A DNA stretch of 64,000 nucleotides from a bacterium (GTDB taxonomy: Bacteria > Patescibacteriota > Microgenomatia > Daviesbacterales > UBA10151): positions 52,537 through 116,536 of the forward strand of contig JAJYNW010000005.1 in the NCBI GenBank assembly GCA_021786105.1, in the 5' to 3' direction. Positions within the stretch are counted from its first letter, which is position 1, and each line of letters opens with the position of its first letter. A model generated the notes under the pieces. It ran no database searches and was not told where the DNA came from. It worked only from the letters and a program-made list of their open reading frames with translations. This document shows positions 2,151 through 29,524 of this stretch, in pieces. The position numbers and the translations under genes were made by a program.

Positions 2151-2846
2151 ATGTCAGTGGACAGGTTATCAGTTTTTTTCCCGGCTTATAACGAAGAACA
2201 GAATATTGCCTTAACGGTTGAACAGGCATTAAAGGTTTTAAAAACTCTTGGGCTAAAAAACTATGAAGTGATCATTGTGGATGATGGTTCCAGGGATGAC
2301 ACAGGTAAAATCGCTGATGAGCTTGCTGTAGAATATCCCGAAGTAAAGGTGGTTCATCAGAAGAATCGTGGTTACGGCGGAGCGTTAAAAACCGGGTTTG
2401 AAAATTCAAAATATGAATGGGTAGCATTTGCTGATTCTGATGGACAGTTTGACTTTACGGATATCACCAAGTTTTTGAATGAAGCTGATCGAGGAGACCT
2501 AATAGTGGGGTACCGCATTAAAAGGGCAGATTCTACGCTCCGGAAAATTACTACGTTTGGATGGAAAACAATCGCTAGAATTTTGATGGGTCTTAATGTC
2601 AGAGATTATTCATGTGGCTTCAAATTAATTAAAAAAGAAGTTTATGAAGCTGTTCTTCCTTTGGTTGGGGAAGAAAAAGTAACCCAGATTGAAATGTTGG
2701 TCAAAGCTAAGAGGCTTGGATTTAAGTTTGTGGAAGTCGGAGTACCTCATTATCCTCGAAAATTTGGTATCCAAACCGGGGCCAATTTGAAGGTTGTGCT
2801 AAAGAGTATCTCTGACCTTTTTAAACTCTGGTGGAAAATCCGTTAA
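2151..2846 (+). CDS. GT2 polyprenyl-phosphate sugar synthase (DPM1/GtrB-like, soluble form)
   Basis: N-terminal LSVFFPAYNEE, IIVDDGSRDDT, GYGGALKTG and DSDGQFD motifs typical of DPM1/GtrB-like GT-A enzymes. Confidence 0.8.
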   Translation: MSVDRLSVFFPAYNEEQNIALTVEQALKVLKTLGLKNYEVIIVDDGSRDDTGKIADELAVEYPEVKVVHQKNRGYGGALKTGFENSKYEWVAFADSDGQFDFTDITKFLNEADRGDLIVGYRIKRADSTLRKITTFGWKTIARILMGLNVRDYSCGFKLIKKEVYEAVLPLVGEEKVTQIEMLVKAKRLGFKFVEVGVPHYPRKFGIQTGANLKVVLKSISDLFKLWWKIR

Positions 2847-2847
2847 G

Positions 2848-4356: not shown

Positions 4357-4380
4357 AGTTGTGTATAATAAAAGTTAAGA

Positions 4381-5127
4381 ATGAGTAATCCCAAATTATC
4401 AGTTATTATTCCCGCTTATAATGCTGCAGAAGACTTAAAACGGGGAATATTAGATGATGTGGCCAAATACCTAGCGAAGCAGGGTTACCCCTCCGAAGTG
4501 TTAATTGTCAATGACGGTTCATCTGACCAAACCGCAGAAATTGTTAAGAAAAATATCGCTGATAAGAAAAGTTTCCGGTTGATCGATAATCCACATAAAG
4601 GAAAAGCGGTGACGGTAATGACCGGGCTTTTAGAAAGCTGTGGGGAGATTGCGGTTTTTACCGATGTTGACCAGTCCACTCCGCTTCCTGAAATTGAGAA
4701 ATTTTTTCCTAAATTTGAGCAAGGGTTTGATATTGTAATTGGTTCCAGATCAGGAAGGTCAGGATCTCCTTTTATTCGGAAGATTGCAACTTTGGGATTT
4801 TCAATCTTAAGAACAGTTATTTTAGGTTTGAATATCTCCGATACCCAATGTGGGTTTAAAGCTTTTGACAGAAAAGCTATAGAACAAATTTTCCCTCCAC
4901 TGCTTAAAAAATACCAAGAGGTAAATGTTTCGGGGCGGGCTTTAAATGCTGATTTTGATGCGGGATTTTTGTTTTTAGCCGGAAAGAAAGGCTTAAAAAT
5001 TGCCGAAGTTAAAGTTGATTGGCATGATGAAAATCCGGAATCCGCTAATCTGGTTAAAAACGCTATTGATACTATCAAAGGGATGATCAGAATTCGGGTT
5101 AGTGATTTCCGGGGAGAGTATGCTTAA
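4381..5127 (+). CDS. GT2 polyprenyl-phosphate sugar synthase (DPM1/GtrB-like)
   Basis: LSVIIPAYNAAEDL, VLIVNDGSSDQT and DVDQSTP (DxD-like) motifs; paralog of 2151..2846. Confidence 0.8.
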   Translation: MSNPKLSVIIPAYNAAEDLKRGILDDVAKYLAKQGYPSEVLIVNDGSSDQTAEIVKKNIADKKSFRLIDNPHKGKAVTVMTGLLESCGEIAVFTDVDQSTPLPEIEKFFPKFEQGFDIVIGSRSGRSGSPFIRKIATLGFSILRTVILGLNISDTQCGFKAFDRKAIEQIFPPLLKKYQEVNVSGRALNADFDAGFLFLAGKKGLKIAEVKVDWHDENPESANLVKNAIDTIKGMIRIRVSDFRGEYA

Positions 5128-6670
5128 TCTATTAAAAACTCGCAAAGTGGAGTGCCTATCCTTAATCCTTTTAATAGGACTTTATTTTGTTTTAAGACTA
5201 CCACATTTAACTTTGCAGCCGATTTTTGCTGACGAGGCAATCTATATTCGCTGGGCCCAAGTGATGGTAGCAGAACCAACCCTTCGATTTTTACCCGTTA
5301 CTGATGGCAAAACACCACTTTTTATGTGGATCATGATGCCTTCATTCAAGTTTTTCGTTGACCCACTACTAACCGGGAGGATTTTGTCTGTTTTTGCCGG
5401 AGCTGCTACTTTGGCGGGAGTGTTCTTTTTAGGGTGGAAGTTTTTCAACTTGAGAAGTGGTTTGTGGGCAGCCCTTCTTGTTGCCGTTACCCCATTTATA
5501 GTTTTTTTTGACCGTTTGGCTTTGGTGGATTCCATGTTGGCAGCTTTTTCGCTTTGGGCGTTAATTTTGGGTTTATTGGTTGTGAAATATTTACGGGTAG
5601 ATTTAGCAATGTGTTTAGGGTACGCCTTGGGGGGTGCGTTACTAACTAAAACTCCAGCAATGTTTAATTTCATTGCCCTCCCTTTCACTATTTTAACTAC
5701 GAATTTTTCTCGGGTCGGTAGAGAAAAAAGGTTCTTAAAGATATTGTTGCTGTGGATTTTAGCAGTTGGCATTGCTCTGGTAATGTATAATTTTTTAAGG
5801 CTTGGACCGAGTTTTGAAAAACTTAATGCCAGGAATCAAGATTACGTTTTTTCCCCATTGGAGCTTGTTGGGAGGCCATTGGATCCTTTTATCCCTCACT
5901 TCCATGATGTTACTGAATTTTTCTCCAAATTAGTGGGAATAGTTGGGTCCTTGTTTGTAATTTTAGGAGTTATTTTGGCTATTGTTAAGAGAAACCGTGT
6001 GGGGTTGGTTATTTTGATTTGGAGTTTAATTCCGCTTTTAATCGAGATGGCTTTCCTAAAGACATTTACTGCAAGGTATATTCTCTCTTCTATTGCCCCG
6101 CTTCTTATTTTAGCTGGATGGGGAATTTCCGAGATTGAGAAATTGATGACTGCAAGAATAAAAAATAAAGTATTGCCCGCACTAGCTCTTTTTATAGTAA
6201 TTGTTTTTTACCCGTTGTCTTTTGATTACTTATTGATAACTGCTCCTGCTCAGGCGGCAGTTCCGGTGAACGACCATAAAGGTTATTTTGAGGAATGGAC
6301 TGCAGGTTATGGGTTTCCTGAGATTGCTCAATTTTTAATTGGGAAAGCCCAGAACGGTCCGGTTATAGTTTTGACGGAGGGATTTTTTGGGACGCTTCCG
6401 GATGGATTGGAAATTTACCTGGAAAAGTATATCCATCAAGCGCCGAAAGGACATGAGATTGTAGTAAAAGGTACAGGCGGCATCAAGATTCCTGAAGATA
6501 TAAGAAAAACAGCATTGACTAGTCAAGTGTATTTTGTTGCCAACCGTTCCCGGTTAGACCCTCTTCCGCCGGGGGTTGAATTAATTAAGGAATTCCCTAA
6601 AAATAAAACTTATATTAATTCACAGGAAGCGATCTTTCTTTTTAAAGTTTTGCCGGAGGTTAAAAAATGA
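5120..6670 (+). CDS. GT-C-fold membrane glycosyltransferase, ArnT/PMT-like
   Basis: Track ORF begins at GTG 5102; the ATG at 5120 is preceded by GGGGAGAG. Loop motif FADEAIYIRW (DE) after TM1, more than 10 TM helices, C-terminal soluble domain. Confidence 0.6.
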   Translation: MLNLLKTRKVECLSLILLIGLYFVLRLPHLTLQPIFADEAIYIRWAQVMVAEPTLRFLPVTDGKTPLFMWIMMPSFKFFVDPLLTGRILSVFAGAATLAGVFFLGWKFFNLRSGLWAALLVAVTPFIVFFDRLALVDSMLAAFSLWALILGLLVVKYLRVDLAMCLGYALGGALLTKTPAMFNFIALPFTILTTNFSRVGREKRFLKILLLWILAVGIALVMYNFLRLGPSFEKLNARNQDYVFSPLELVGRPLDPFIPHFHDVTEFFSKLVGIVGSLFVILGVILAIVKRNRVGLVILIWSLIPLLIEMAFLKTFTARYILSSIAPLLILAGWGISEIEKLMTARIKNKVLPALALFIVIVFYPLSFDYLLITAPAQAAVPVNDHKGYFEEWTAGYGFPEIAQFLIGKAQNGPVIVLTEGFFGTLPDGLEIYLEKYIHQAPKGHEIVVKGTGGIKIPEDIRKTALTSQVYFVANRSRLDPLPPGVELIKEFPKNKTYINSQEAIFLFKVLPEVKK

Positions 6671-8322
6671 ACCTAATAAAAAAAATTACCTGGGTTTTTT
6701 TAATAATTTTGGTTTCCATACCGGCGTTATTACCTTTAACTAGGCAAGGATTCTTCCCTACCCAAGATTTTATTCATGTAGCCAGAATCTACGAGATGGA
6801 CAAGGCTTTAAAGATAGGCCAGTTTCCAGTCAGGTGGGTTCCTGATTTTCGCTATGGTGAGCCAACCTTTGATTTTTATGCCCCGCTCCCATTCTATCTA
6901 GGATCATTAATTCACAACCTGAACTTTAGTTTCCTGGATACAACCAAAATTCTTTTCGGTTTAAGTTTCCTGCTCTCCGGTTTGGCGATGTACCTCCTGT
7001 CAAAGGAATTTTTCGGAAAGGTCGGTGGACTTATCTCAGCAACTTTATATATTTATGCGCCGTATCATTCCGTAGATATCTATGTTCGGGGAGCCTTATC
7101 AGAATCACTCGCGCTAATATTTTTCCCGCTAATTTTTTTAACTGCATTCAGACTAACAAAAGAAGTTAATACTAAAAATATTGCCTTGACTGCACTATCT
7201 TTTGGCGGGCTTTTCCTGACACACAACGTTATGACTGTGCTTTTCACCCCTTTTGCTTTGGGCTGGTTAGCATTTTTGGTTTGGAGGGAGAGGAACTTAA
7301 AGTTAATAAAACCTTTTGGAGTTTCACTTTTGCTTGGCGCAGGCCTTGCCGCAACATTTATGCTGCCGGCATTTTTTGAAAAGAATTTAGTCCAGTCGGA
7401 TAAGATGATTACCGGATACTTTGATTATCGCGGCCATTTCGTGGAAATTAAACAGTTCTTTTCGACATTTTGGGGATATGGGGCATCTTTGTGGGGTCCT
7501 GAAGACGGTATGTCTTTTCAGGTGGGGCTTGTCCATTGGGCCGTTTTTGGTTTGTCCCTTATTACCTCTTTTGTATTCTTTAAAAACAAAAAACAACTCT
7601 ACTTAATTTTGGCTTTGGCTGCAGCCTTCTTGTTTTCATTATTTATGCAGCACAATAAGTCCACCCCTATCTGGACCCACCTTTCACTTTTGGCTTACAC
7701 CCAATTTCCCTGGAGGTTCTTGGGAATTTCGATATTCCTGGTTTCTTTTATTGGTGGGGTATTAGGAACTGTCTTTAAAAAGAAGTTGGTTATCCTGGCG
7801 TTAGTCTTAATCGTTGCAACTGTTTACTTTAATATAAACTTTTTCCACCCGGAGTCATATTATTTGGATTCCATAGATGCTCATTATGTAGGCCCGGAAG
7901 TTTTGGCAAATGGTGATAAATTACCGAAGGATTATTTACCTATTTGGGTTCAGGATTTACAGAGAGACAGGATTATATTCCCCCATACAGTAGGAGGGGA
8001 GGCAATAATTTCTAATTATCAAAATAATTCAACTTCCGCGCAGTTTCAGGCAAAAGTAACCAAAGATGCGGACATTGAAGTACCTTTAACCTACTTTCCA
8101 GGATGGCAAGCTTCAGCAAACAATAAACCAGTCAATCTTGAAACTCCGGATAAATATGGGTTGATTAGAATAAAATTGACACCAGGAGACTACAATGTAA
8201 AATTAACGTTCTTGGATACTCCAATAAGAAGTTTTGGCAATGCCTTATCCATTGTCTCTCTTGTGACAATTATCGGCTTGCTGGCTATGAAAAAGTTTAA
8301 ATTTAAACCATGGTTAACCTAA
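6667..8322 (+). CDS. YfhO-like GT-C-fold membrane glycosyltransferase (tandem paralog 1)
   Basis: Polytopic N-terminal region. C-terminus has the YfhO-type signature (LTYFPGWQASANNKPVNL) followed by a final TM helix. ATGA overlap with the upstream gene. Confidence 0.55.
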   Translation: MNLIKKITWVFLIILVSIPALLPLTRQGFFPTQDFIHVARIYEMDKALKIGQFPVRWVPDFRYGEPTFDFYAPLPFYLGSLIHNLNFSFLDTTKILFGLSFLLSGLAMYLLSKEFFGKVGGLISATLYIYAPYHSVDIYVRGALSESLALIFFPLIFLTAFRLTKEVNTKNIALTALSFGGLFLTHNVMTVLFTPFALGWLAFLVWRERNLKLIKPFGVSLLLGAGLAATFMLPAFFEKNLVQSDKMITGYFDYRGHFVEIKQFFSTFWGYGASLWGPEDGMSFQVGLVHWAVFGLSLITSFVFFKNKKQLYLILALAAAFLFSLFMQHNKSTPIWTHLSLLAYTQFPWRFLGISIFLVSFIGGVLGTVFKKKLVILALVLIVATVYFNINFFHPESYYLDSIDAHYVGPEVLANGDKLPKDYLPIWVQDLQRDRIIFPHTVGGEAIISNYQNNSTSAQFQAKVTKDADIEVPLTYFPGWQASANNKPVNLETPDKYGLIRIKLTPGDYNVKLTFLDTPIRSFGNALSIVSLVTIIGLLAMKKFKFKPWLT

Positions 8323-10034
8323 AGTTGTGGATCAAAAATAATTGGACCTTCCTTTTGGGGCTAATTCTGACATTAGCCCTGCTTTGGCCCCTCTTTCAGG
8401 CTCCTTATTTCTCACAACATGACGATGTTCAGACTATCCGGCTTTATGAAATGGATAAATGCTTCAAGGATGGCCAGATTCCCTGCCGCTGGGTTCCTGA
8501 CTTGGGAGGATTATACGGATACCCGCTGTTTAATTACTATGCGCCTCTCCCATATTACTATGGGGAAATATTTTATTCACTAACCCACAGTTTGCTTTTC
8601 TCTGCCAAATTAATGTTCGTCACCGCTTTTGTCGGTTCTTTCATCTTCATGTTTCTTCTTGCAAGAAAGTTGTGGGGGGGTTATGGAGCCCTAATTTCGG
8701 GAGTGTTTTATGCCTATGCTCCTTATCATGCTGTTGATTTTTATGTCCGAGGAGCAATGGAAGAAATGTGGGCCTTAATGCTTTTTCCGGCAATTCTTTG
8801 GGCGCTATTCCGTTTAAAGGAATCGACACGGATTTATAACGTCATGCTCCTTGGCTTGTTTTTAGCCTTGTTAATGCTTTCGCATAATTTAAGTGCCATG
8901 ATTTTTCTGCCAATTATCTTCACCTTAGTGGTGTTTTTTATGTGGCAAAAAAGGGATTTTAGGCTTTTAAAACTTGTTGTCCTTTCGGGAGTATTAGCAT
9001 TTCTTCTTTCGGCTTTTTATTTTTTACCAATGGTAGCAGAGAAAAATTTGGTGCATGTTGAAACAACAGTTGAGGGTTATTTTTCCTATACTGAACATTT
9101 CAAAGGTTTATATAAACTTTTCATTCAGCGGAATTGGGGTTGGGGTGCATCAGTGAGGGAAGTTCCTGGTGGGGAAAAAGACGGAATGTCTTTTCAGATA
9201 GGATGGGTTCATCTTTTAGGATGGTTCCTGGCTTTGGCTACTGCTGCCTATCTCTGGAAAAAGGATAGACCTAAGAGTCTCCTCTTGGTTATGTTCTCGC
9301 TTTTTACGGTTGCTAGTGTATTTATGATTCATCCACGATCAGAATTCATTTGGAAGTTAATTGACCCCCTTAAATATTTACAATTTCCCTGGAGATTCTT
9401 GATGTTAATTATCTTTTTTGTGTCTTTGATGTCAGGGAGTATTTTTGTTTGGTTGAGCAAGAAAAAAGCAATTCTGCTCCTTTCGGGGCTGATTATTTTG
9501 GTGGTTGCGGCAAACTTTACCTATTTCCGGCCTGAAAAATTTATTCAAGTGACTGACCAGCAACTTTTAACTGGTAAAAATTGGGATACGGAAATTAAGC
9601 GTTCGATATTTGATTTCCTGCCGATTTACGCCCAAGAGCCGCCGGCAGAATTGGCCACAACCAGGTATCAAGTTGTTGTGGGTAATGCTAAGGTAACCAA
9701 CTTCAAAGAAGGGACTAATTGGTTTAACTTTAATGCCAACATTGATACCCACACCATACTCTTGTTGTCCCAATATTATTTCCCTAATTGGAAAGTTTAT
9801 GTTGATGGTCAAGAAGTAAAAGTGGAGTACAAGAATAACCATCTTGGTTTAATGAGTTTGATTATTGGGCCGGGAAACCATTATATTTCAGGGAAGCTTG
9901 AGAATACCACCATCCGCTCTGCCGGCAATTTGATTAGCCTTGGAGGGGTATTAATTTTCTTATTATTAATACCAACTCAGATTCCCAGTACAAGAAGGTG
10001 GCTTACTTACTATTTGAAAGCATTATATAGGTAG
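8310..10034 (+). CDS. YfhO-like GT-C-fold membrane glycosyltransferase (tandem paralog 2)
   Basis: Clear paralog of 6667..8322 (IRLYEMDKCFKDGQIPCRWVPD vs ARIYEMDKALKIGQFPVRWVPD). C-terminal YYFPNWKVYVDGQEV motif plus a terminal TM. Confidence 0.55.
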   Translation: MVNLKLWIKNNWTFLLGLILTLALLWPLFQAPYFSQHDDVQTIRLYEMDKCFKDGQIPCRWVPDLGGLYGYPLFNYYAPLPYYYGEIFYSLTHSLLFSAKLMFVTAFVGSFIFMFLLARKLWGGYGALISGVFYAYAPYHAVDFYVRGAMEEMWALMLFPAILWALFRLKESTRIYNVMLLGLFLALLMLSHNLSAMIFLPIIFTLVVFFMWQKRDFRLLKLVVLSGVLAFLLSAFYFLPMVAEKNLVHVETTVEGYFSYTEHFKGLYKLFIQRNWGWGASVREVPGGEKDGMSFQIGWVHLLGWFLALATAAYLWKKDRPKSLLLVMFSLFTVASVFMIHPRSEFIWKLIDPLKYLQFPWRFLMLIIFFVSLMSGSIFVWLSKKKAILLLSGLIILVVAANFTYFRPEKFIQVTDQQLLTGKNWDTEIKRSIFDFLPIYAQEPPAELATTRYQVVVGNAKVTNFKEGTNWFNFNANIDTHTILLLSQYYFPNWKVYVDGQEVKVEYKNNHLGLMSLIIGPGNHYISGKLENTTIRSAGNLISLGGVLIFLLLIPTQIPSTRRWLTYYLKALYR

Positions 10035-10041
10035 ACTATAA

Positions 10042-10203
10042 CCGCTTTGCCAGAACAGTGCATTTAAATTCTGAGTAAATTTGGCAAAGATAAGCGGAGC
10101 TTGCGACCTTCGGTCTAATGGTTTCAAACTTCCGCAGTTTAATGCTAGCAAAGCGGATGTAAACTTGAAAGGAGAAAATGCAGACTTTCGGTCTGCGGAA
10201 GTT
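10042..10203 (+). promoter_or_regulatory. structured intergenic leader with nested and mutually exclusive inverted repeats upstream of or around the Wzx start
   Basis: CCGCTTTGCCAG (10042..10053) pairs with TTGGCAAAG..GCGG (10081..10097). GACCTTCGGTC hairpin at 10105..10115. AACTTCCGCAG (10127..10137) is perfectly complementary to CTGCGGAAGTT (10193..10203), enclosing AAAGGAG and ATG 10178. Confidence 0.4.
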
Positions 10204-11698
10204 TATGGAAGACATTAATGCGGATGAGCACTTGGATGCTACAGGTGAAATTACAATCGAAACGGTTAAAAAAAGAGCAGTTGGCGGAATAGCTGCTTTA
10301 ACCGGGAGAACAATATTTTTTCAGGGTGTAACCCTTATCGCCACTTTCTTTCTGACTGTTTTTTTAAATCCCGGCCAGTATGGTGTGTTTTATATTGTTT
10401 CGGCGGTAGTAGGATTTTTTGCCAAATTTGATATGGGTTTGGCTGCAGCGTTAGTCCAAAAGAAGGATCACCCTGCACCGCAAGACTTAAAAACTGCATT
10501 TACGATCCAAAACTCGATAGTGCTCACTTTTGTTATCCTTATTTTTCTGACTACTCCTTTTATCTCTAGTTGGCAGCACCTAAACCAAGAAAGCACTTAT
10601 TTGCTTTGGGCTTTAGCTTTGGGGTTATTAATAGCATCTTTAAAAAGTATTCCCTCAACTCTTTTAGAAAGAGAATTGAATTTCAGCAGATATGTTATTC
10701 CTCAAATGGTGGAACAGTTATTGTTCTATACAGTGGCAGTATTTCTGGCTTGGCGGGGTTTAGGGGTAACCAGCTACACCGTTGCTGTATTGGTAAGCGG
10801 AGTATCGGGACTAATCTTGATTTATATTTTGCGTCCCTGGAAACCCGGGATTGCTTGGGATGGAAAATCTTTTAGGAATTTGCTTCGTTATGGGATACCT
10901 TACCAATTTAATACCATTTTGGCTTCAATTAAGGATGATGGCATGACTCTGGTATTGGGTGGAATCTTAGGGTCAGCGAATTACGGCTTGTTAGTTTGGG
11001 CCAAAAAGTGGGCTGAAGCTCCCCTCCGGTTCTTTATGGACCAGGTCATTAAGGTGACATTTCCAGCCTATTCCCGGATGCAAGACAACCAGGAAGAGCT
11101 TTCAAAAGCTGTAACAAAATCCTTGTTATTCATTTGTCTTTTGGTTTTTCCGGCGTTGGCTGGATTAGTCATCCTGGCTCCTTCTTTAGTTAATCTAATT
11201 CCCCGATATGGGAAGTGGGAACCTGCATTATTTGCCCTGGCGCTAATTTCCATAAACTCAGCTTGGGCAGCAATAACTACTCCTTTAACTAATGTGCTGA
11301 TGGCTATCGGGAAAATAAAAACTACTTCCCGCTTGATGGTCATGTGGACAGTACTTACTTGGGTACTTTTCCCGCTGCTTGCTTATCTTTACGGAATAAA
11401 CGGGGTAGCGTGGGGTTATGTTGTGGTAGGATGCAGCTCGCTGGTTGCTGTTCTGGTTGCTTTGAAATCTGTTAAAGTTGATATCCTCTCATGTATTGGT
11501 AAGCCTTTGTTTTCAACCCTAATTTTTGCTTTAGCTTTATTAGCCGGCCGTCAACTATTGCCCTTATCTTGGATCAGCTTTTTCTCTATTTTAATGTTCG
11601 GGTTATTAATATACCTGTTTTTTACCTTCCTGCTTTTGGGGCCGACTCTGAGCAAAGATGCTAAAAAATTAGCTTTAGGAATTAGGGGGAGGATCTAG
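10178..11698 (+). CDS. Wzx/PST-family (MOP superfamily) oligosaccharide flippase
   Basis: About 12-14 TM helices and an LNPGQYGVF motif near TM1 typical of polysaccharide-biosynthesis (PST) proteins. The alternative in-frame start ATG 10205 is favoured by the conserved upstream palindrome (see findings). Confidence 0.7.
   Translation: MQTFGLRKFMEDINADEHLDATGEITIETVKKRAVGGIAALTGRTIFFQGVTLIATFFLTVFLNPGQYGVFYIVSAVVGFFAKFDMGLAAALVQKKDHPAPQDLKTAFTIQNSIVLTFVILIFLTTPFISSWQHLNQESTYLLWALALGLLIASLKSIPSTLLERELNFSRYVIPQMVEQLLFYTVAVFLAWRGLGVTSYTVAVLVSGVSGLILIYILRPWKPGIAWDGKSFRNLLRYGIPYQFNTILASIKDDGMTLVLGGILGSANYGLLVWAKKWAEAPLRFFMDQVIKVTFPAYSRMQDNQEELSKAVTKSLLFICLLVFPALAGLVILAPSLVNLIPRYGKWEPALFALALISINSAWAAITTPLTNVLMAIGKIKTTSRLMVMWTVLTWVLFPLLAYLYGINGVAWGYVVVGCSSLVAVLVALKSVKVDILSCIGKPLFSTLIFALALLAGRQLLPLSWISFFSILMFGLLIYLFFTFLLLGPTLSKDAKKLALGIRGRI
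10181..10195. promoter_or_regulatory. 15-bp palindrome CAGACTTTCGGTCTG, 9 nt upstream of in-frame ATG 10205 of the Wzx gene
   Basis: Perfect 5+5 inverted repeat. Near-identical copy at 15170..15184 with identical spacing to a start codon; core GACCTTCGGTC also at 10105..10115. Confidence 0.45.
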
Positions 11699-14600
11699 GT
11701 GCTTAAAAGATTATTCCTTGTATTAAGTATATTCTTTTTAGTATTGTCCTTTTTATTTGTCCCTAAAAAGGTACAAGCTGCAGATAACTCCTTTGTAAAT
11801 ATAGTTAATCCTGTGAGGGGAGCAGATTTTTGGGATTTAAAAGGCCAAAAACCGGTAGATAGTGTTTTAGGGGAAGCCGAAATCCTAAAACAAGCAAACT
11901 TGCCTGCTACGTGGCTCATCCGCTTTGATGCCTTAAATGACAATCAAGTTACAGATGTTATTAAAAATTTACCCCAAAATCATGAAATTGGTTTGTTTTT
12001 AGAGGTCACTCCTACTTGGACTAAGGCAGCAAATGTAAATTATAAATCTTCAGGCAGTTGGCATGGAGCAGGGAGTGCATTTTTGACCGGTTATGAACCT
12101 TCTGAGAGAGAAAAATTAATAGATAGTGCCTTTGATAATTTCAAAAGAATTTACGGTTACTATCCCAAGTCTATTGGTGCCTGGTATATCGATAGTTACT
12201 CCTTAAGTTACATGCAGAAAAAATATGGAATTGTGGGGGCATTAATTGTTGCCGATCAACACAGTACCGATAGCTATCAAATCTGGGGACAATTTTGGTC
12301 AACCCCTTATTATCCTTCCTCAAAAAATACCCTGATACCGGCCCAAAATTCTGAAGATAAATTACCTGTAGTCATTACCCAATGGGCGGCGCGTGACCCT
12401 CTAAACGGATATGGCAAAGGGGTAGAGGAGAGTACCTACAGTGTTCAGCCAAATGATTATATTGATTACCATAATTTGGGCACTAACTACTTTTCTAATC
12501 TCTTAGATATCTACACTTCCCAAAATTTGAATCAATTTAACCAAATTGTAGTTGGATTGGAGAACACTTACTCCTGGAAAAAGTATCAATCTGAATATCA
12601 AAATCAAATAAACATTATCTCTGCAAAGAATAAATCAGGGCAGTTTGGGGTGAATACTATGAAAGATTTCGCGGGCTGGTACATGAATAAATTTACCGGT
12701 GTTTCCCCGACTCAAGTGGTAGTGGCTAAGGATCCGCTCGGAACGGATAAATTTGCAGTATGGTTTATGAATCCATTCTATCGGGCTGGATGGGTTTATA
12801 ACCAGGATGGAAGTTTATTCCGTGATGTAAGGCCTTATACCGAGGGGAGGGATGAACAGTGTTACTCAGTTTCCTGTGACAAACTGGAGTTTGCCACTTT
12901 TGCGCTTTGGACGATTGATGAAATTACCAGAAATCAAAAGTTTGTTTTGGATCCGGGTAAAGTTAAAGACATTGAGTTAGCTAAAGATGGTCAAAACTAT
13001 TTGCTCAAGTACTCTAATGAAGCAGGAAGAACACGGGAGGTGACTTTTATGCCCCGCGATATTGGGGTTGATGGAAAAGTTAAATCAATAGATGCCTTTA
13101 TCTTGGATGCGACTTCCGGCAGCCAAGGAGGGCAAACTACAAAGGAAAAATATCCCGAAAGCAATATCAAAGTACCGGCTCCCAATATTCCTCTGTTTTT
13201 GGGATCAATTTTGAAATTTGTGCTATTTTTGATATTCGCTTTATTTATTCCGGGGTTTGTGCTTTTGGGAAGGACCAAAGAATTACATATTTTAAACAGG
13301 GCTTTTCTTTCAATTTGTATAGGAATTGTCGGGATTACTGTTCTTTCGTATTTAACAGGGTACCTAAAGATAGGGTGGATAGCTTATCTCTATATAGCTG
13401 TGTTTTTGTTGATTTTTATATCGCGGAGATTTCACCATGATCTTAAAATAGACAAATCAGAAATTAGGTTCTCAAAGGTATCAGCTGCCATTCTTTTGGT
13501 AATTGTAGCAGGTACTATTTTCCAGTCTTTAGCCATGATCCGATCTGGTTGGCCTTACAGCTTTGGTTTAGGTTTTTGGGGACCAATCGGGCACGACGGC
13601 ATTTGGCATCAGGCATTAATTAACCAATTACTACAAAATGTTCCGCCTCAGAACCCCGGTTTTGCGGGTAATACTCTTTCTAACTATCATTACTTTTATG
13701 ACCTCCTTGTTGCCGTTACGGCGGCATTAACTCAAATACCAGTTCTGGATTTGTTGTACAGGTTTTATCCGGTGCTCTTATCGTTGCTGCTGGGAGCGGG
13801 GACTTATTTTTTGGTGATGAAATTGTCAAAGAGTAAAATTGCCGCTTTGTTGTCCTTATATTTTGTTTATTTTGCAGGCAGTTTTGGATGGATGGTAGAG
13901 TTTATTAAACAAAGGCACTTTGGTGGTGAATCATCTTTTTGGGCGAACCAACCGGTTTCTGCAAACCTGAATCCCCCCTTTGCAATCTCTTTGGTTTTGC
14001 TGGTTGCTTTAATGGTACTTGTTTCTTACATAAGAGAACGTAACCTCAGACTAGGTTTTTTGGTGGCGCTAACTGCCGGGTCATTAATTGAGTTTAAAGT
14101 GTATGCCGGTGTTATTGTTTTGGGAGGGCTATTTGCCACTGCGCTCTTGCAGTTTTTACAAAAAAGAGATTTATCGGCAATGAAAATGTTTTTTGGGGCA
14201 TTGGTGTTATCGCTGGTAGTTTTTCTGCCCCAAAACAGTAAGTCGGGTGAGCTTTTAGTGTTTTCTCCTTTTTGGTTTGTGAATTCAATGATTAATTTCC
14301 CCGATAGGGTAGGTTGGGAAAGACTGGCTTTAGCTCTTCAAGTGGCTCCCTTAAGGGGGGAATGGCTTAAGTTCTTTGTGGTAGAAGGGATAGCTTTGTT
14401 AATTTTTATAGTTGGAAACTTGGGGACCAGATTTTTGGCACTGTTTTCTTTGCCTGTATTTTTTAAGAGGAGATTATGGGAAATGCCCGAGTATCTTTTA
14501 ATTATTTTTATGTCCGCTCTGGCTTTTTTAATTCCGGTATTTTTTATTCAAAAGGGTAATCCCTGGAATACGATCCAATTTTTCTATTATTTCATTTACT

Positions 14601-15163
14601 TTGTGGCTATTTTTACGGGGGATGCCTTAATAGCTATAAGGAAACATCTGCCAAAATATTTAAGTTTTGTTCTTTTGGGAATTTTGCTAATAATTACTCC
14701 CATTAATGCTTTTGTGACGTTTACCAGCTATCTTTCCTCGTCTTCTCCCTCAAGGCTTACCGGCGGAGAGTATGCAGGACTTAGCTTTTTGCACAAACTT
14801 CCCGATGGTGTTGTATTGACTTATCCTTTTGATAAGAATGAGCGTTCTAAATTTAACGACCCGTTCCCCTTGCTAATTTATGATACAAGCAACTATGTTT
14901 CTGCTTTTTCAGGAAAACCAGTGTTTGTGGAAGATGAAATTCAGCAGGAAATTTTGCAAAATGATTACCAAAAGAGATTAGTAGAGGCCTCCGATTTCTT
15001 TAATGGAAGGGATCCCAAATGGTCTGCTAATTTCTTAAAGCAAAACAATATTAAATATATTTATCTTCCGAAGATATTCTCTGTTTCACTTGATGAAGAA
15101 TCGCTTAATTTAAAAAAGGTTTATGATAATGAAGAGGTGGATGTTTATGTTCGTCAGAACTAA
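11699..15163 (+). CDS. large fusion protein: signal peptide + ~500 aa extracytoplasmic domain + C-terminal polytopic HGHDG-x-WH GT-C-like membrane module
   Basis: GTG start directly after the upstream stop, with GGGGGAGGA 7 nt upstream. N-terminus MLKRLFLVLSIFFLVLSFLFVPKKVQA/AD is a classic signal peptide. Residues ~520-1154 are clearly homologous to the whole of 18570..20543 (shared HDG[IM]WH, NPxFAG, FAGSFG, GGES-FWA blocks). Confidence 0.5.
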   Translation: MLKRLFLVLSIFFLVLSFLFVPKKVQAADNSFVNIVNPVRGADFWDLKGQKPVDSVLGEAEILKQANLPATWLIRFDALNDNQVTDVIKNLPQNHEIGLFLEVTPTWTKAANVNYKSSGSWHGAGSAFLTGYEPSEREKLIDSAFDNFKRIYGYYPKSIGAWYIDSYSLSYMQKKYGIVGALIVADQHSTDSYQIWGQFWSTPYYPSSKNTLIPAQNSEDKLPVVITQWAARDPLNGYGKGVEESTYSVQPNDYIDYHNLGTNYFSNLLDIYTSQNLNQFNQIVVGLENTYSWKKYQSEYQNQINIISAKNKSGQFGVNTMKDFAGWYMNKFTGVSPTQVVVAKDPLGTDKFAVWFMNPFYRAGWVYNQDGSLFRDVRPYTEGRDEQCYSVSCDKLEFATFALWTIDEITRNQKFVLDPGKVKDIELAKDGQNYLLKYSNEAGRTREVTFMPRDIGVDGKVKSIDAFILDATSGSQGGQTTKEKYPESNIKVPAPNIPLFLGSILKFVLFLIFALFIPGFVLLGRTKELHILNRAFLSICIGIVGITVLSYLTGYLKIGWIAYLYIAVFLLIFISRRFHHDLKIDKSEIRFSKVSAAILLVIVAGTIFQSLAMIRSGWPYSFGLGFWGPIGHDGIWHQALINQLLQNVPPQNPGFAGNTLSNYHYFYDLLVAVTAALTQIPVLDLLYRFYPVLLSLLLGAGTYFLVMKLSKSKIAALLSLYFVYFAGSFGWMVEFIKQRHFGGESSFWANQPVSANLNPPFAISLVLLVALMVLVSYIRERNLRLGFLVALTAGSLIEFKVYAGVIVLGGLFATALLQFLQKRDLSAMKMFFGALVLSLVVFLPQNSKSGELLVFSPFWFVNSMINFPDRVGWERLALALQVAPLRGEWLKFFVVEGIALLIFIVGNLGTRFLALFSLPVFFKRRLWEMPEYLLIIFMSALAFLIPVFFIQKGNPWNTIQFFYYFIYFVAIFTGDALIAIRKHLPKYLSFVLLGILLIITPINAFVTFTSYLSSSSPSRLTGGEYAGLSFLHKLPDGVVLTYPFDKNERSKFNDPFPLLIYDTSNYVSAFSGKPVFVEDEIQQEILQNDYQKRLVEASDFFNGRDPKWSANFLKQNNIKYIYLPKIFSVSLDEESLNLKKVYDNEEVDVYVRQN

Positions 15164-15169
15164 AACAAA

Positions 15170-15184
15170 CAGACCGAAGGTCTG
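15170..15184. promoter_or_regulatory. 15-bp palindrome CAGACCGAAGGTCTG, 9 nt upstream of ATG 15194 (ArnT-like gene)
   Basis: Same palindrome as at 10181..10195 (one central mismatch) followed by YGNAAGTTT then ATG in both cases. Confidence 0.45.
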
Positions 15185-15193
15185 TGCAAGTTT

Positions 15194-16705
15194 ATGAAAC
15201 TCAGATTTAAAAATTATATCCCAATTATTCTTATTATCCTCCTGGCAATATTTTTGCGGTTTGTAAACATCAATTCTAATCCTCCTTCTATGTATGGAGA
15301 TGAACTTACCTTAGTCTATGATGCTTATTCAATCCTAAAGACAGGACATGACCAAACCGGAGCTTTTCTGCCCTTAACATTTGCCATGAGTGAAGGTAGG
15401 CCACCTGCTTATGTCTACCTAACTGTACCATTGGTGGCGGCATTTGGTCCTACGGCGTTTGCTGCAAGATTTTTCTCTCTGGTCTCGGGCGTAGGAATTG
15501 TTCTTTTACTCTATCTTATACTTAAATCGTTAGTTTCTGAACGGGTTGCAACAATTGGAGCTCTATTTGCGGCAATTTCTCCTTGGGATTTATCACTTTC
15601 CCGGGGTGGATTCGAAACCCATCTGGCTCTGTTCTTGTCGCTTTTGGGAGTATATGCAGCTGTTCGTGCCAAGGTCCGTCCTTGGTATTTATTGATTTCT
15701 GGGATCTCATTTGGTTTGGCAATCTTCACATATCACTCATATAAAGTTGTGGTTCCGGCGTTTTTACCATTCTTGTTGTGGTTTATTGATTTAAAACAAC
15801 TAATTAAAGATAAAAAATTTCGAAAGAGTTTCATTATCGGGGCGACTGCATTTTTGTTTTTTGTTTCATTCTGGTTATATCAGGTAATTGGAGGATCGGA
15901 AATCCGTTTTCAAAATACCAGTCTCTTAAGCAATGCTAAACTCTCATCTACTATAACCGAAAAGGTTAATACCGAGAGAACTTTAGATAACTCACCTTTT
16001 AAAGTTATCATTCACAATAGACCAGTGGAGTATTTAACAACTTTAGGGGATAACTATTTTTCTCATTTTTCTTTTGATTTTCTTTTTTTGCATGGAGACG
16101 GAAATCCTCGGCATAACCAGGGGTTAATGGGGGAAATGTATATTGCTGATTCATTGTTGGTATTGCTGGGAATAATTTTTCTTTGGCAAAAATACAAGAA
16201 AGTTGCGCTCCTTTTGGGAGGTTGGATGATAGTTTCGCCCTTAGCTACGATGGTAGTTTCTCCAGCTCATGCTTTAAGAAGCACATTCCTTCTACCACCG
16301 CTTTTAATCTTATCTGCAACAGGTTTTACATATCTTCTGGAATTATCGCGTGATAAATGGGTAGCAAAATTAGTGTTTTTTGCAGTGGTACTTGGCATAA
16401 TAACCCAATTCATTTTTCTTGTAGATAGAGTTTATTACTTATACCCCAAGCAGTTTGGAAATTTTTGGAGTCTGTCTGCAAAAACCGCATCCGAAGATGC
16501 ATTGGCTGAAAGCAAAAAATATGATTATGTCGTTTTATCTGACCAAATTGATAGCATCAATTTAGCTTTTCCTGTTTATGTAAAAGTTGACCCAAATCAA
16601 GTTATTTCCCAGTATAATCAAAACGTTAGAAATTTTGGTAATATTTATATTGGCAAGGTATCCAATTTGCCGGGTAATGTTTTATACATAAAAAATAATC
16701 AATGA
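15194..16705 (+). CDS. GT-C-fold membrane glycosyltransferase, ArnT/PMT_2-like
   Basis: YGDELTLVYDAYS loop (DE motif) and multi-TM core. Paralogous to the 32270/33919/35423 triplet. Confidence 0.7.
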   Translation: MKLRFKNYIPIILIILLAIFLRFVNINSNPPSMYGDELTLVYDAYSILKTGHDQTGAFLPLTFAMSEGRPPAYVYLTVPLVAAFGPTAFAARFFSLVSGVGIVLLLYLILKSLVSERVATIGALFAAISPWDLSLSRGGFETHLALFLSLLGVYAAVRAKVRPWYLLISGISFGLAIFTYHSYKVVVPAFLPFLLWFIDLKQLIKDKKFRKSFIIGATAFLFFVSFWLYQVIGGSEIRFQNTSLLSNAKLSSTITEKVNTERTLDNSPFKVIIHNRPVEYLTTLGDNYFSHFSFDFLFLHGDGNPRHNQGLMGEMYIADSLLVLLGIIFLWQKYKKVALLLGGWMIVSPLATMVVSPAHALRSTFLLPPLLILSATGFTYLLELSRDKWVAKLVFFAVVLGIITQFIFLVDRVYYLYPKQFGNFWSLSAKTASEDALAESKKYDYVVLSDQIDSINLAFPVYVKVDPNQVISQYNQNVRNFGNIYIGKVSNLPGNVLYIKNNQ

Positions 16706-17937
16706 TATCACCTAAATTGCAAAAGATTTTAATAATGGGAATTTTGTTGAGGCTTTTAATAATGCCTTTTTATTTTCACCCCGATATCAAAACTTATAAC
16801 TTTCAATCTTCATTTTTAAAAAATGGTGTCGTAAATATTTATTCATATCTTACAGATCATAAACAAGATTTACCTCTGAAAGAGGAATTTGTCTATTTCC
16901 CGTTAACTTATTTCTTTTTGGGAGGTTACCAAATATTAGCATCTCCGTTTTTGGGGCCGGGATTTCACCAGTGGCTTTTTGATGCTTCCCAATCTGCAAC
17001 TCAACGGCCTGATGTTTTTAGGTACCTTTTTATTTTAAAACTTCCTTACCTTCTTTTGGACATCGCCATAGGCTTTTTGCTAATGAAATTTTTTGAAAAG
17101 GACGAGGACAAGAAAAGGGTATTCACCATCTGGATGTTTAATCCTCTTTCCCTAGTTTTAATTTATGCTTTCTCGAACTTGGACATTATTGTTGTATTTT
17201 TGACTGTCCTGAGTTTATTACTGGCCCAAAAACAAAAACCCATATCTGCAGCTCTTGCGCTTGGAATTGGGGCAGGATTTAAGGCCTATCCGTTATTGTT
17301 TGCCCCATTCCTAATGCTCACAGTTAAAGATTGGAAACAAAGATTGGGAATTTTACTGGTCTCCGTTTTGCCCTTTATCCTGACAATTGCTCCGTTCTTA
17401 AGATCTACAAGTTTTAAAGAGGCAACTTTAACTTCTGGACTTATGACTAGACTTACTTTAATGGGAATGAATTTAGGTTTTAACGAAACATTGCTTGTCG
17501 GTGTAGCGGCACTCTCTGTATTATTTTTCTGGGGTTTTTCAGAGATGCAAATTTCCAAAGATAAACTTTGGCAATATTATCTGGCGCTTTTATTGTTACT
17601 TTTGTCTGTAATCCATTTTCATGTCCAGTGGATTTTATGGATGATGCCGTTTGCGGCCTTACTTTTTGTAAGATCTAAAAAACTAATCTTGCCTATGGCC
17701 TTACTTCTTTTAACGGCATTTTTTATTCCCTTGCTTTATGAGGACAAAGCTATGACCGTGGGGCTCTTTTCTGTCATTAACCCTACATATAATTTATTGC
17801 CAATTCCTTTTGCTATTGTTCAAAAGTTTTATGATCCCTATGTTATCCAGAGTATCTTGCATAGTATTTTTGCGGGGGGGAGTTTAGTGGTTGCTTGGAA
17901 AATACTGAGAAGTAGAAATGTAGATATCGATGAATAG
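16702..17937 (+). CDS. polytopic GT-C-like membrane protein (DUF2029/GT87-like)
   Basis: About 10 TM helices and a GAGFKAYPLLFAPF motif (K-x-x-P ... P-L-F) shared with 22102..23457 and the central module of 43995..47114. Confidence 0.45.
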   Translation: MISPKLQKILIMGILLRLLIMPFYFHPDIKTYNFQSSFLKNGVVNIYSYLTDHKQDLPLKEEFVYFPLTYFFLGGYQILASPFLGPGFHQWLFDASQSATQRPDVFRYLFILKLPYLLLDIAIGFLLMKFFEKDEDKKRVFTIWMFNPLSLVLIYAFSNLDIIVVFLTVLSLLLAQKQKPISAALALGIGAGFKAYPLLFAPFLMLTVKDWKQRLGILLVSVLPFILTIAPFLRSTSFKEATLTSGLMTRLTLMGMNLGFNETLLVGVAALSVLFFWGFSEMQISKDKLWQYYLALLLLLLSVIHFHVQWILWMMPFAALLFVRSKKLILPMALLLLTAFFIPLLYEDKAMTVGLFSVINPTYNLLPIPFAIVQKFYDPYVIQSILHSIFAGGSLVVAWKILRSRNVDIDE

Positions 17938-18562
17938 ATTATTTTGGATCTTGTTAATTTTGGTTATTTCAGCCCCGGCCATTTTAAGTTTGGGTATCAG
18001 ATTGGTTCCGAATAGTTTCCAGCCTTCTTTGGACGGTACCCAAAAAGTTTATGGAGAAGTAAAAGTTTCTTCCGATATCTCAAGTAGCTCTAATAATTTA
18101 TCCGGAATTGGTCTAAGCATTAAAAATCCAAACTTGATTAATAAAAAAGACATTAATCTTTCGGTATTTTCCAACGGAAATCTTTTGAGAAGCGTGACTT
18201 TAAACGGCAGGTCTATTGGTGACGGAAATTTTATAAAATTTATTTTTGATCCGATAGACGACTCCAAAGGAAAAGTATATAACATGGTTTTTTCGGCACC
18301 GGGAGTTGCTGATGGGGAAGCATTGGAGATTTTTCTTACCAGTAATCCGGATGGATCAGGGATTAAAGTGGGTAAGGATGTCCATACCGAAGGTTTATCG
18401 GACGTGGTTTTCTATCACCCAAGTAACCCCCTCTCATTAGCTACAATAATATATGAGGAACTGATAGGAAGACTGGCAAAAGATATGATGTTTTTTGCTT
18501 TTTATATTATTATCCTTGGAGGATTAGGAGCATACTTATTTACGCTATCCAAAAAATCCTAG
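17930..18562 (+). CDS. bitopic membrane protein with Ser/Asn/Gly-rich ectodomain, unknown function
   Basis: N-terminal signal anchor, ~150 aa hydrophilic S/N/G-rich domain, C-terminal TM; translationally coupled to the upstream GT-C gene. Confidence 0.35.
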   Translation: MNRLFWILLILVISAPAILSLGIRLVPNSFQPSLDGTQKVYGEVKVSSDISSSSNNLSGIGLSIKNPNLINKKDINLSVFSNGNLLRSVTLNGRSIGDGNFIKFIFDPIDDSKGKVYNMVFSAPGVADGEALEIFLTSNPDGSGIKVGKDVHTEGLSDVVFYHPSNPLSLATIIYEELIGRLAKDMMFFAFYIIILGGLGAYLFTLSKKS

Positions 18563-29500: not shown

Positions 29501-29524
29501 GATTGCTTTCCTAAGGTAGCAATC
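29501..29524. promoter_or_regulatory. inverted repeat GATTGCT-N10-AGCAATC in the divergent intergenic region between the YfhO gene (-) and a GT2 gene (+)
   Basis: Perfect 7-bp arms with a 10-nt spacer, located 36 nt upstream of ATG 29560 and about 29 nt upstream of the minus-strand start. Confidence 0.35.

What the first reader, a model, noticed from the sequence alone, without database searches (positions are those of the whole stretch)
10181..15196. Conserved 15-bp palindrome CAGAC(C/T)TTCGGTCTG with identical 9-nt spacing to the start codons of two different genes
CAGACTTTCGGTCTG-cggaagttt-ATG (10181..10207, Wzx flippase) and CAGACCGAAGGTCTG-tgcaagttt-ATG (15170..15196, ArnT-like GT-C) share a near-perfect palindrome, the same distance to ATG, and a conserved aAGTTT spacer. 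A third copy of the core GACCTTCGGTC lies at 10105..10115. A palindrome of this size at a fixed promoter-proximal position is the signature of a dimeric transcription-factor operator, or alternatively a conserved 5'-UTR hairpin with UUCG/GAA loop controlling translation initiation. It also argues that the flippase really starts at ATG 10205, not 10178. No regulator gene is visible in the window, so the cognate factor would be encoded elsewhere.
Basis: seen in the sequence. Interest (0 to 1): 0.65.

Follow-up and report, generated by a model that had tools for sequence, protein, structure and literature searches.

The report
Duplicated hairpin before two start codons
Two neighbouring sugar-pathway genes in an uncultured Microgenomates bacterium each have nearly the same small GC-rich hairpin 9 bases before the start codon; the repeat is real and non-random, but it is private to this genome, absent from six related genomes, and its function is unproven.

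Summary
CAGACTTTCGGTCTG (10181-10195) and CAGACCGAAGGTCTG (15170-15184) each lie 9 nt before an ATG. They share the spacer NGNAAGTTT and extend to 7-bp stems. A degenerate inverted copy sits at 10105-10115. Homologue N-termini support ATG 10205 as the flippase start. These are the only two stable hairpins in the window's ~1.2 kb of intergenic DNA. They precede the only two same-strand genes that have no Shine-Dalgarno, no leaderless-type TATAAT box and no overlap with the upstream gene.

The module is not conserved. Six syntenic relatives (~60% protein identity) have 0-19 nt junctions with no hairpin. No other copy occurs in 84 kb of this genome, including more than 20 other glycosylation genes. 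Scans of the public genome and metagenome collections gave only chance hits. Rfam finds nothing.

The 170-nt flippase leader is lineage-specific and made partly of inverted copies of the start site. One is a perfect 12-nt segment predicted to pair with the spacer.

Best guess (about 0.35): a plus-strand mRNA stem-loop that shapes the translation start or protects the mRNA. An operator and a functionless template-switch product remain serious rivals. Interest is low to moderate.

The parts
10180..10196 (+). Hairpin A: G-CAGACT-TTC-GGTCTG-C. Seven pairs including one U.G that pairs only on the plus strand. RNA folding energy -9.9 kcal/mol.
10197..10204 (+). Spacer A, GGAAGTTT. With C10196 it makes the 9 nt CGGAAGTTT between the 15-nt palindrome and the ATG.
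   Evidence: (D3)
10205..10207 (+). Probable true start codon of the Wzx-type flippase (MEDINADEHLD...).
   Evidence: homologues have a mode of 7 residues before EHLD
15169..15185 (+). Hairpin B: A-CAGACC-GAA-GGTCTG-T. Seven Watson-Crick pairs, -10.5 kcal/mol. It starts 6 nt after the TAA stop of the 1154-aa gene.
15186..15193 (+). Spacer B, GCAAGTTT. With T15185 it makes the 9 nt TGCAAGTTT.
15194..15196 (+). Start codon of the PMT_2 (GT-C) glycosyltransferase. There is no in-frame ATG, GTG or TTG between the stop at 15161-15163 and this ATG.
10096..10124 (-). Copy C: an inverted, degenerate copy of the B-type module. The core GACCTTCGGTCT is intact. A 3-nt deletion removes the outer stem, and the GCAAG flank is kept.
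   Evidence: (I4)
10116..10137 (+). Leader segment complementary to the flippase start site. TAATGGTTTC-AAACTTCCGCAG is the reverse complement of 10193-10217 without the ATG. Predicted pairing probability for 10130-10200 is 0.90.
10035..10204 (+). Lineage-specific 170-nt leader upstream of the flippase; relatives have -4 to +19 nt here. It is rich in internal inverted repeats, with a folding z-score of -2.5 on the plus strand and -3.2 on the minus strand.
   Evidence: (I17, I18)
10170..10180 (+). AGGAG, then AAA, then ATG 10178: a Shine-Dalgarno-like sequence with an in-frame upstream ATG. The gene caller chose this start. It lies in the loop of the predicted long-range helix.
10160..10166 (+). 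TAAACTT, a second short inverted copy of AAGTTTA (10199-10205).

Best explanation
This is a lineage-private, locally duplicated start-site module of about 30 nt. It consists of a 7-bp GC-rich stem-loop, 8-9 unstructured nucleotides (NGNAAGUUU) and the AUG. I think it most likely acts in the plus-strand mRNA. The stem-loop would form a fixed structured boundary just 5' of the ribosome landing site of two internal genes that cannot use the start mechanisms their neighbours use. It would keep the AAGUUUAUG stretch single-stranded. If the polycistronic RNA is cut in the A-rich stretch just upstream, the stem-loop would also protect the downstream mRNA as a 5' hairpin. At the flippase gene the module sits in a 170-nt leader that carries a perfect 12-nt antisense copy of the spacer, so that gene's start is predicted to be additionally closable. 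Shown: the sequence anatomy, its non-randomness, its absence from relatives, and the outlier status of the two starts. Inferred: that it acts as RNA, and any effect on translation or stability.
For: 1) The segment from -32 to -5 folds at -9.9 (A) and -9.5 (B) kcal/mol. The other 46 gene starts in the window range from 0 to -5.7. 2) A and B are the only same-strand genes more than 24 nt from the upstream gene. They are also the only ones lacking a Shine-Dalgarno sequence, a near-consensus TATAAT-like box 6-11 nt upstream, and an overlap or near-abutment of 5 nt or less (gene 23475, 17-nt gap, has only TAATAT, which matches TATAAT at 4 of 6 positions). 3) A carries a T-G position that pairs as U.G only on the plus strand (7 pairs on plus, 6 pairs with a 5-nt loop on minus). 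4) The closing pair differs by a compensatory change, G-C against A-T, and all stem cells are paired. 5) All 9 bases AAGTTTATG are identical, and the differences cluster in the loop and the closing pair. 6) Both hairpins are preceded by A-rich single-stranded sequence, AAAAUG and AAAACAAA. From general knowledge, this is the usual context for RNase E or RNase Y cleavage beside a stem-loop. 7) A perfect 12-nt leader complement of the flippase spacer exists (about 0.001 expected by chance for segments of this size) and pairs with probability 0.9 in the ensemble.
Against: There are no comparative data. The six syntenic relatives lack the hairpin and the leader. No second strain exists: independent assemblies are identical over more than 24 kb. 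With three copies, covariation is not informative (264 of 500 shuffles do as well). Template switching during replication can create perfect stems, flip loops and make multi-base compensatory changes without selection (PMC8794818). Copy C keeps the 11-12 bp core but loses the outer stem, which suits a DNA half-site reading better than an RNA hairpin. Hairpin A and the leader helix partly exclude each other, and in the full leader hairpin A has only about 0.2 pairing probability. Only about 9% of the genome could be inspected.
Confidence: 0.35

Rival explanations
1. Functionless by-product of local mutation. Replication template switching or illegitimate recombination copied a 30-nt start region, including the ATG, to a second junction. 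It also scattered inverted fragments into the flippase leader. The hairpins persist because palindromes are self-correcting, not because they are used.
For: The module is private to one genome and absent from six relatives. All three copies lie within 5 kb and there are none in the other roughly 79 kb inspected. The leader is a patchwork of direct and inverted fragments of the flippase 5' end: AAACTTCCGCAG, TAAACTT, TTAATGC and GCGGATG. The flipped loop and the paired double change are typical template-switch footprints (PMC8794818). Copy C is visibly decaying.
Against: The genome is extremely compact, with about 1.8% intergenic DNA, so 170 nt of junk plus a 17-nt insert would be unusual. Both full copies ended up exactly at working start codons of genes that lack any other start signal. 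AAGTTTATG has no substitutions, whereas the loop and closing pair have diverged.
Confidence: 0.25
2. Operator for a dimeric DNA-binding regulator that recognises AGACC-N3-GGTCT. Sites C and A lie in the flippase leader, 78 bp apart centre to centre, and site B lies before the GT-C gene. This would give coordinated repression or activation.
For: The sites are near-perfect 15-17 bp dyads. The inner core GACY-N3-GGTC(T) is the best-kept part in all three copies, including C, where the RNA stem is crippled. GACYNNNGGTC gives 7 matches, counting both strands, against 1.2 expected, and 5 of the 7 come from the three sites. A and C lie in the only intergenic region of the 18-kb same-strand gene string that is large enough to hold a promoter.
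Against: No regulator domain was found in the window. The nearest helix-turn-helix gene is a weak HTH_3 hit about 8 kb left of the window start. Site B sits in a 30-nt gap 6 nt after a stop codon, and no promoter-like site was detected nearby; no sigma-70-like site was found on the plus strand in the leader either. There are no further sites before more than 20 other glycosylation genes. The sites are absent from orthologous junctions. An operator does not require an identical spacer or identical spacing to the ATG.
Confidence: 0.2
3. Intrinsic terminators for antisense (minus-strand) transcription. On the minus strand both hairpins are followed by U-rich tails.
For: The terminator scan flags both on the minus strand: ACAGACCTTCGGTCTGT followed by TTGTTTTAGT, and GCAGACCGAAAGTCTGC followed by ATTTTCTCCT.
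Against: All genes from 2151 to 18562 are on the plus strand, so no minus-strand gene ends here. The scan found 7 terminator-like sites against 6.7 expected from shuffles. Convergent gene ends elsewhere in the window have no hairpins. The A-C mismatch in A falls on the minus strand.
Confidence: 0.05
4. Recombination sites. Read by their asymmetric centres (TTC against GAA), A and B are inverted repeats, 14 of 15 identical. A site-specific recombinase could then invert the 5-kb flippase plus 1154-aa gene segment as an on/off switch. Alternatively, the 12-nt inverted repeats at 10126-10137 and 10193-10204 could flip a 55-bp segment.
For: A and B are 93% complementary as inverted repeats (I20). 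A perfect 12-bp inverted repeat exists in the leader. Surface-polysaccharide loci are classic targets of invertible switches (general knowledge, for example Bacteroides).
Against: No recombinase domain was found in the window. Independent assemblies from several samples all have the same orientation and an identical sequence. A 3-bp centre is too short for the 6-8 bp overlap region of tyrosine recombinases, and 55 bp is too short to synapse (general knowledge).
Confidence: 0.04

Closest known systems
Intercistronic or 5'-proximal mRNA stem-loops that set differential stability and expression within operons (for example the ompA 5' hairpin, malE-malF REP stem-loops, and B. subtilis cggR-gapA processing by RNase Y). 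Recalled from general knowledge.
   Same: A short, stable GC-rich stem-loop in a tiny gap between same-strand genes. It is preceded by A-rich single-stranded RNA and followed by an open start region.
   Different: No processing site or half-life data exist here. There are only two copies and no sequence relation to any described element. The fixed 9-nt distance to the AUG and the shared spacer are not features of those systems.
Operators of dimeric regulators, for example GntR/HutC-type dre sites (TGGTCTAGACCA). Recalled from general knowledge.
   Same: A perfect dyad of 5-6 bp half-sites using the same words, AGACC and GGTCT, in front of sugar-related genes.
   Different: The half-sites are in the opposite (everted) order with a 3-bp spacer. 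No regulator gene is nearby, no promoter was detected at B, and the motif does not recur in the regulon or in orthologous regions.
JUMPstart/ops element upstream of polysaccharide operons (RfaH recruitment).
   Same: A short shared element just upstream of polysaccharide-gene starts, accompanied by stem-loops.
   Different: The ops 8-mer GGCGGTAG is not in either module or in the leader. Its only exact copies in the window are inside coding sequence, and matches with up to one mismatch are only modestly above the shuffle mean (27 against 17.7 expected; 3 of 100 shuffles reached 27).
Dispersed palindromic repeats (REP/BIME, MITE-like elements).
   Same: An imperfect palindrome in intergenic DNA, with copies in both orientations.
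   Different: There are only 3 copies, all within 5 kb, and none in the other roughly 79 kb. No terminal repeats, target duplications or associated transposase gene were noticed, but these were not searched for systematically.
Start-site sequestration by a long-range 5'-UTR helix (translational riboswitch or thermometer logic).
   Same: A 12-bp perfect complement of the -12 to -1 region lies 55 nt upstream and is predicted to pair (probability 0.9).
   Different: It occurs at the flippase only. No Rfam family matches. No ligand-binding fold and no conservation could be tested.

Membership tests
Transcription-factor operator | Dyad-symmetric double-stranded DNA site of about 12-20 bp | tested here: met
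   15-17 bp palindromes at A and B, and an 11-12 bp core at C
Transcription-factor operator | Lies at or next to a promoter | tested here: inconclusive
   The sigma-70 consensus scan finds no plus-strand promoter in the leader or near B. Promoters of this phylum are poorly defined.
Transcription-factor operator | Recurs at other regulon members and at orthologous positions in relatives | tested here: not met
   No further sites in 84 kb that include more than 20 glycosylation genes. Absent from six syntenic relatives.
Transcription-factor operator | A cognate DNA-binding regulator | tested here: inconclusive
   None found in the window. There is a weak HTH_3 gene about 8 kb outside it.
Intrinsic terminator | GC-rich hairpin followed directly by a U-tract, downstream of a gene on the same strand | tested here: not met
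   The U-rich tails are on the minus strand only, and no minus-strand gene ends there. The plus-strand tails, GCAAGUUUAU and GGAAGUUUAU, are poor.
JUMPstart/ops | The ops core GGCGGTAG in the leader | tested here: not met
   No match in 10035-10204 or 15164-15193
Described cis-regulatory RNA (Rfam) | Match to a curated covariance model | tested here: not met
   No hit at gathering score in the whole window. Only noise (E of 0.19 or higher, far below gathering scores) around both sites.
Dispersed palindromic repeat (REP or MITE) | Many copies spread through the genome's intergenic regions | tested here: inconclusive
   Three copies clustered within 5 kb and none elsewhere in 84 kb, but about 91% of the genome could not be read. 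The module pattern is not found in the genome or metagenome collections beyond chance.
Invertible DNA switch | Inverted repeats, a nearby recombinase, and both orientations present in the population | tested here: not met
   Inverted repeats are present (I20). No recombinase domain was found. Assemblies from different runs are identical and show one orientation. Raw reads were not available.
5' or intercistronic mRNA stabiliser or start-site stem-loop | The stem-loop is present in the sense transcript and stem integrity changes expression or half-life | not testable with these tools
   Only predicted folding is available. Testing needs transcript mapping and mutagenesis.

The most novel reading that the evidence does not exclude
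The 170-nt flippase leader is a regulatory RNA that carries antisense copies of both start-site modules. Segment 10116-10137 pairs with the flippase start site. Copy C (10096-10124) can pair with the GT-C start site 5 kb downstream: predicted duplex -39.8 kcal/mol, against -18.6 (sd 3.2) for shuffled leaders. One leader would then coordinately gate translation of a flippase and a glycosyltransferase in a Patescibacteria surface-glycan operon, with the hairpins acting as the docking or kissing elements.
Probability: 0.06. Interest if true: 0.6.

Novelty: new member of a known kind. Interest (0 to 1): 0.25.

Why it matters
Almost nothing is known about gene regulation in Patescibacteria/CPR genomes, which have very little non-coding DNA. 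A start-site hairpin used where Shine-Dalgarno, leaderless and coupled initiation are all unavailable would be a small but concrete clue to how internal genes are expressed in these operons. As it stands, the element is a single-genome curiosity. Its practical value is to correct the flippase start codon to 10205 and to flag the 170-nt leader as the only candidate regulatory region in an 18-kb gene string.

Tried and rejected
1) Rfam at gathering score on the whole window, and at E up to 10 around both sites: nothing credible. No tRNA or tmRNA.
That is roughly what chance would give for a 15-mer, and it showed the bare palindrome is too short for collection scans.
3) The module pattern CAGACNNNNGGTCTGNGNAAGTTT gave 8 hits in genome contigs and 14 in metagenome contigs. 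The matched stretches come from contigs of unrelated organisms and varied GC content, and none is followed by ATG, so they look like chance. The source genome itself is not in genome contigs, so a whole-genome count was impossible.
4) Extending the window by 10 kb on each side found no new copy. The other assemblies are the same strain with 0 mismatches, so there is no population variation to use.
5) Six syntenic relatives showed no hairpin, no core motif at the junctions and no leader.
6) Protein-level reading: QT(F/E)GL(R/C)KFM is just the same DNA read in the same frame. B has no possible start codon upstream.
7) Stop-codon readthrough at B: the stop at 15161 is in frame with ATG 15194 and a hairpin follows 6 nt later, but A has no equivalent and the frame match has a 1-in-3 chance. 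Dropped.
8) The ops/JUMPstart 8-mer is absent.
9) attC or dif-like sites: I saw no matching core motifs when reading the sequence. No pattern search was run.
10) A literature search for the exact sequences found 0 papers. A search for leaderless, Patescibacteria and Shine-Dalgarno together found 0 papers.
11) Covariation counting on the three copies is uninformative at this sample size.
Full report
ORIGIN AND CONTEXT

The window is part of contig DAHXJP010000001.1 (942,606 bp) of assembly GCA_027372145.1. The closest flippase homologues carry Microgenomates, Daviesbacteria or Patescibacteria labels and are at most about 62% identical. The window is one large glycosylation island. It holds more than 15 GT-C/PMT-like membrane glycosyltransferases, GT2 and GT4 enzymes, two Wzx-type flippases, and MBOAT/AlgX-like acyltransferases. 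No DNA-binding regulator or recombinase domain was found. Coding density is extreme: about 1176 of 64000 bases are intergenic.

THE OBSERVATION

It is correct as written.
- Site A is CAGACTTTCGGTCTG (10181-10195), followed by CGGAAGTTT and ATG 10205.
- Site B is CAGACCGAAGGTCTG (15170-15184), followed by TGCAAGTTT and ATG 15194.
- The degenerate palindrome pattern occurs only at these two places, against 0.02 expected.
- The core GACCTTCGGTC with up to one mismatch occurs only at A, B and 10105-10115, against 0.44 expected.
- The similarity is a 30-nt direct repeat (D3).
- Each stem extends by one extra pair, G-C in A and A-T in B. A contains a T-G position that pairs (as U.G) only in plus-strand RNA. 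The loops are reverse complements of each other, TTC and GAA.
- Predicted hairpin energies are -9.9 and -10.5 kcal/mol.

START CODON OF THE FLIPPASE

The gene caller used ATG 10178, which follows AGGAG after only 3 nt. Among 120 homologues, 96 have 4-8 residues before the conserved EHLD motif, with a mode of 7. ATG 10205 gives 7 (MEDINAD-EHLD) and ATG 10178 gives 16. Use of 10178 cannot be excluded: it is in frame and lies unpaired in the predicted structure.

The third copy is not just a core.
- In reverse orientation, CTTGC---GACCTTCGGTCTAATGGTTT aligns with the reverse complement of B, CTTGCACAGACCTTCGGTCTGTTTGTTT. A 3-nt deletion removes the outer stem (I4, 36, 66).
- Directly after it, 10116-10137 (TAATGGTTTC-AAACTTCCGCAG) is the reverse complement of 10193-10217 (CTGCGGAAGTTT-ATG-GAAGACATTA). 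The match is 12 of 12 over the spacer, and the gap falls exactly on the start codon.
- Further small fragments of the flippase 5' end recur in the leader: TAAACTT, TTAATGC and GCGGATG.
- The 170-nt leader folds better than shuffles, with z of -2.5 on the plus strand and -3.2 on the minus strand.
- With the coding start included, the minimum-energy structure pairs the complementary segment with the spacer. Pair 10130-10200 has probability 0.90 and hairpin A falls to about 0.2.
- Enforcing hairpin A together with 8 of the 12 long-range pairs costs only 1.2 kcal/mol more.

HOW UNUSUAL THE TWO STARTS ARE

- Folding of -32 to -5 gives -9.9 and -9.5 kcal/mol for A and B. The other 46 starts range from 0 to -5.7.
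- The other same-strand genes fall into three groups. Some overlap or abut the upstream gene (gap of 5 nt or less). Some have GGAGG-type Shine-Dalgarno sequences. Those with gaps of 13-24 nt carry a TATAAT-like box 6-11 nt before the start, the pattern expected for leaderless mRNAs (gene 23475, gap 17, has only TAATAT, a 4-of-6 match).
- A (gap 170) and B (gap 30) have none of these.
- This is the main positive argument that the module is tied to how these two genes are expressed.

COMPARATIVE EVIDENCE

- Six related loci keep the order PTPS-like/GT-C, Wzx, an approximately 1140-aa protein, then a GT-C or other gene (L002, L004/5, L006/7, L152, L153, L154).
- In all six, the flippase overlaps the upstream gene or follows it within 19 nt. 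The gap after the large gene is 10-19 nt.
- Upstream folding energies there are 0 to -4.7 kcal/mol, and no GACY-N3-GGTC core lies at these junctions.
- L153 and L002 are syntenic on both sides, so A and B are insertions into conserved junctions, not synteny breakpoints.
- These relatives are only about 60% identical in protein. The result shows that the element is lineage-private. It does not show that the element is inert.
- No closer relative exists in the protein collection.
- Independent assemblies of the same organism are identical to the window over 12,122 and 12,502 bases.

WIDER SEARCHES

- The module pattern (18 specified bases) gave 8 matches in the genome collection and 14 in the metagenome collection. 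The matched stretches come from contigs of unrelated organisms and varied GC content, and none is followed by ATG. I read these as chance.
- The source genome is not in that genome collection, so only 84 kb of it (the window plus 10 kb on each side) could be examined. No further copy was found.
- Rfam has no match.
- The ops 8-mer of JUMPstart is absent from both sites.
- No paper contains the sequences.

INTERPRETATION

Three readings survive.

a) An RNA element of the sense transcript.
- In favour: the plus-strand-only U.G, the maintained and compensated stem, the perfectly kept single-stranded AAGUUUAUG, the A-rich 5' flank, and the outlier status of exactly those two genes that lack any other start signal.
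- The likely role is to define an open start site downstream of a stable stem. A second possible role is to protect the downstream RNA after cleavage.
- At the flippase, a leader complement can additionally close the start.

b) A DNA operator.
- In favour: the dyad, and the fact that the inner AGACC/GGTCT half-sites are the best-kept part in all three copies, including C, whose RNA stem is crippled.
- Against: no promoter at B, no regulator nearby, no recurrence in the island and none in relatives.

c) A neutral product of template switching or duplication.
- In favour: the privacy of the element, the local clustering, the patchwork leader, and the flipped loop.
- The same mechanism can produce compensatory changes without selection (PMC8794818).
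- Against: the genome's compactness, and the placement of both intact copies at working start codons.

Minus-strand terminators and recombination or inversion sites (I20) were considered and are unlikely, for the reasons given under the rival explanations.

I commit to (a) at about 0.35, with (c) at about 0.25 and (b) at about 0.20.

VERDICT

This is a real, statistically solid, but single-genome repeat of a start-site hairpin module. The phrase "conserved operator" does not. Nothing places it in a described family, and it is best filed as a new instance of the generic class of gene-proximal stem-loop elements. Interest is low to moderate.

Noticed in passing
window 4381, 20588, 32270, 43199, 51994 (perfect TATAAT 6-11 nt before the start); 18570(-) and 42157 (TAAAAT): Several genes have a -10-type box ending 6-11 nt before the start codon, and no Shine-Dalgarno sequence. 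Some of these sit inside tightly packed same-strand strings. This is the pattern expected for leaderless mRNAs with promoters embedded in the 3' end of the upstream gene. Gaps of 13-24 nt go with such a box, and gaps of 5 nt or less go with overlap or coupling.
   Followed up: partly
window 29501-29524: GATTGCT-ttcctaaggt-AGCAATC: 7-bp inverted arms with a 10-nt centre, in the 87-nt divergent intergenic region between the YfhO-like gene (27034-29472, minus strand) and a GT2 gene (29560 onward). It is a candidate operator or shared regulatory site, unrelated in sequence to the palindrome under study.
   Followed up: no
window 11699-15163; L002 8508-11945; L006 8515-11940; L153 7507-10962; L154 7500-10970: A protein of about 1140-1156 aa has no Pfam family in the window copy and only weak DUF3863 hits in relatives. 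It follows the Wzx flippase directly in the five relatives whose contigs reach that far (L152 ends inside the next gene). This is a conserved flippase partner of unknown function in Microgenomates.
   Followed up: no
window 10142-10162: A 6-codon mini-ORF, ATG CTA GCA AAG CGG ATG TAA, lies in the flippase leader. It overlaps the 3' arm of the leader's closing stem (10145-10161 pairs with 10037-10053). It could be a leader peptide or could be chance.
   Followed up: no
window 37972-37995: A 9-bp perfect hairpin, TAAAAGCCGgggaatCGGCTTTTA, lies 45 nt inside the GT4 gene 37928-38977. It looks like a terminator, but it appears to encode part of the GT4 N-terminus (reading ...KSRGIGFY..., judged by eye and not checked). 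It is probably coding coincidence.
   Followed up: no
window 7503-7515 and 9179-9191: AGACGGTATGTCT and AGACGGAATGTCT occur within the two tandem PTPS_related paralogues. They look like shared coding sequence from gene duplication rather than copies of the palindrome.
   Followed up: no
L150 18598-18921 (about 8 kb left of the window start): A 107-aa protein with a weak HTH_3 (XRE-type) hit is the nearest possible DNA-binding regulator to the island. No link to the palindrome was tested.
   Followed up: no
L153 5982-6000 and L154 5990-6000: In two relatives, the short gap before the flippase start contains TATTAT- or GATAAT-like boxes 6-10 nt from the ATG. This suggests the flippase begins a leaderless transcription unit there. 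In the window genome that junction has been replaced by the 170-nt leader.
   Followed up: no
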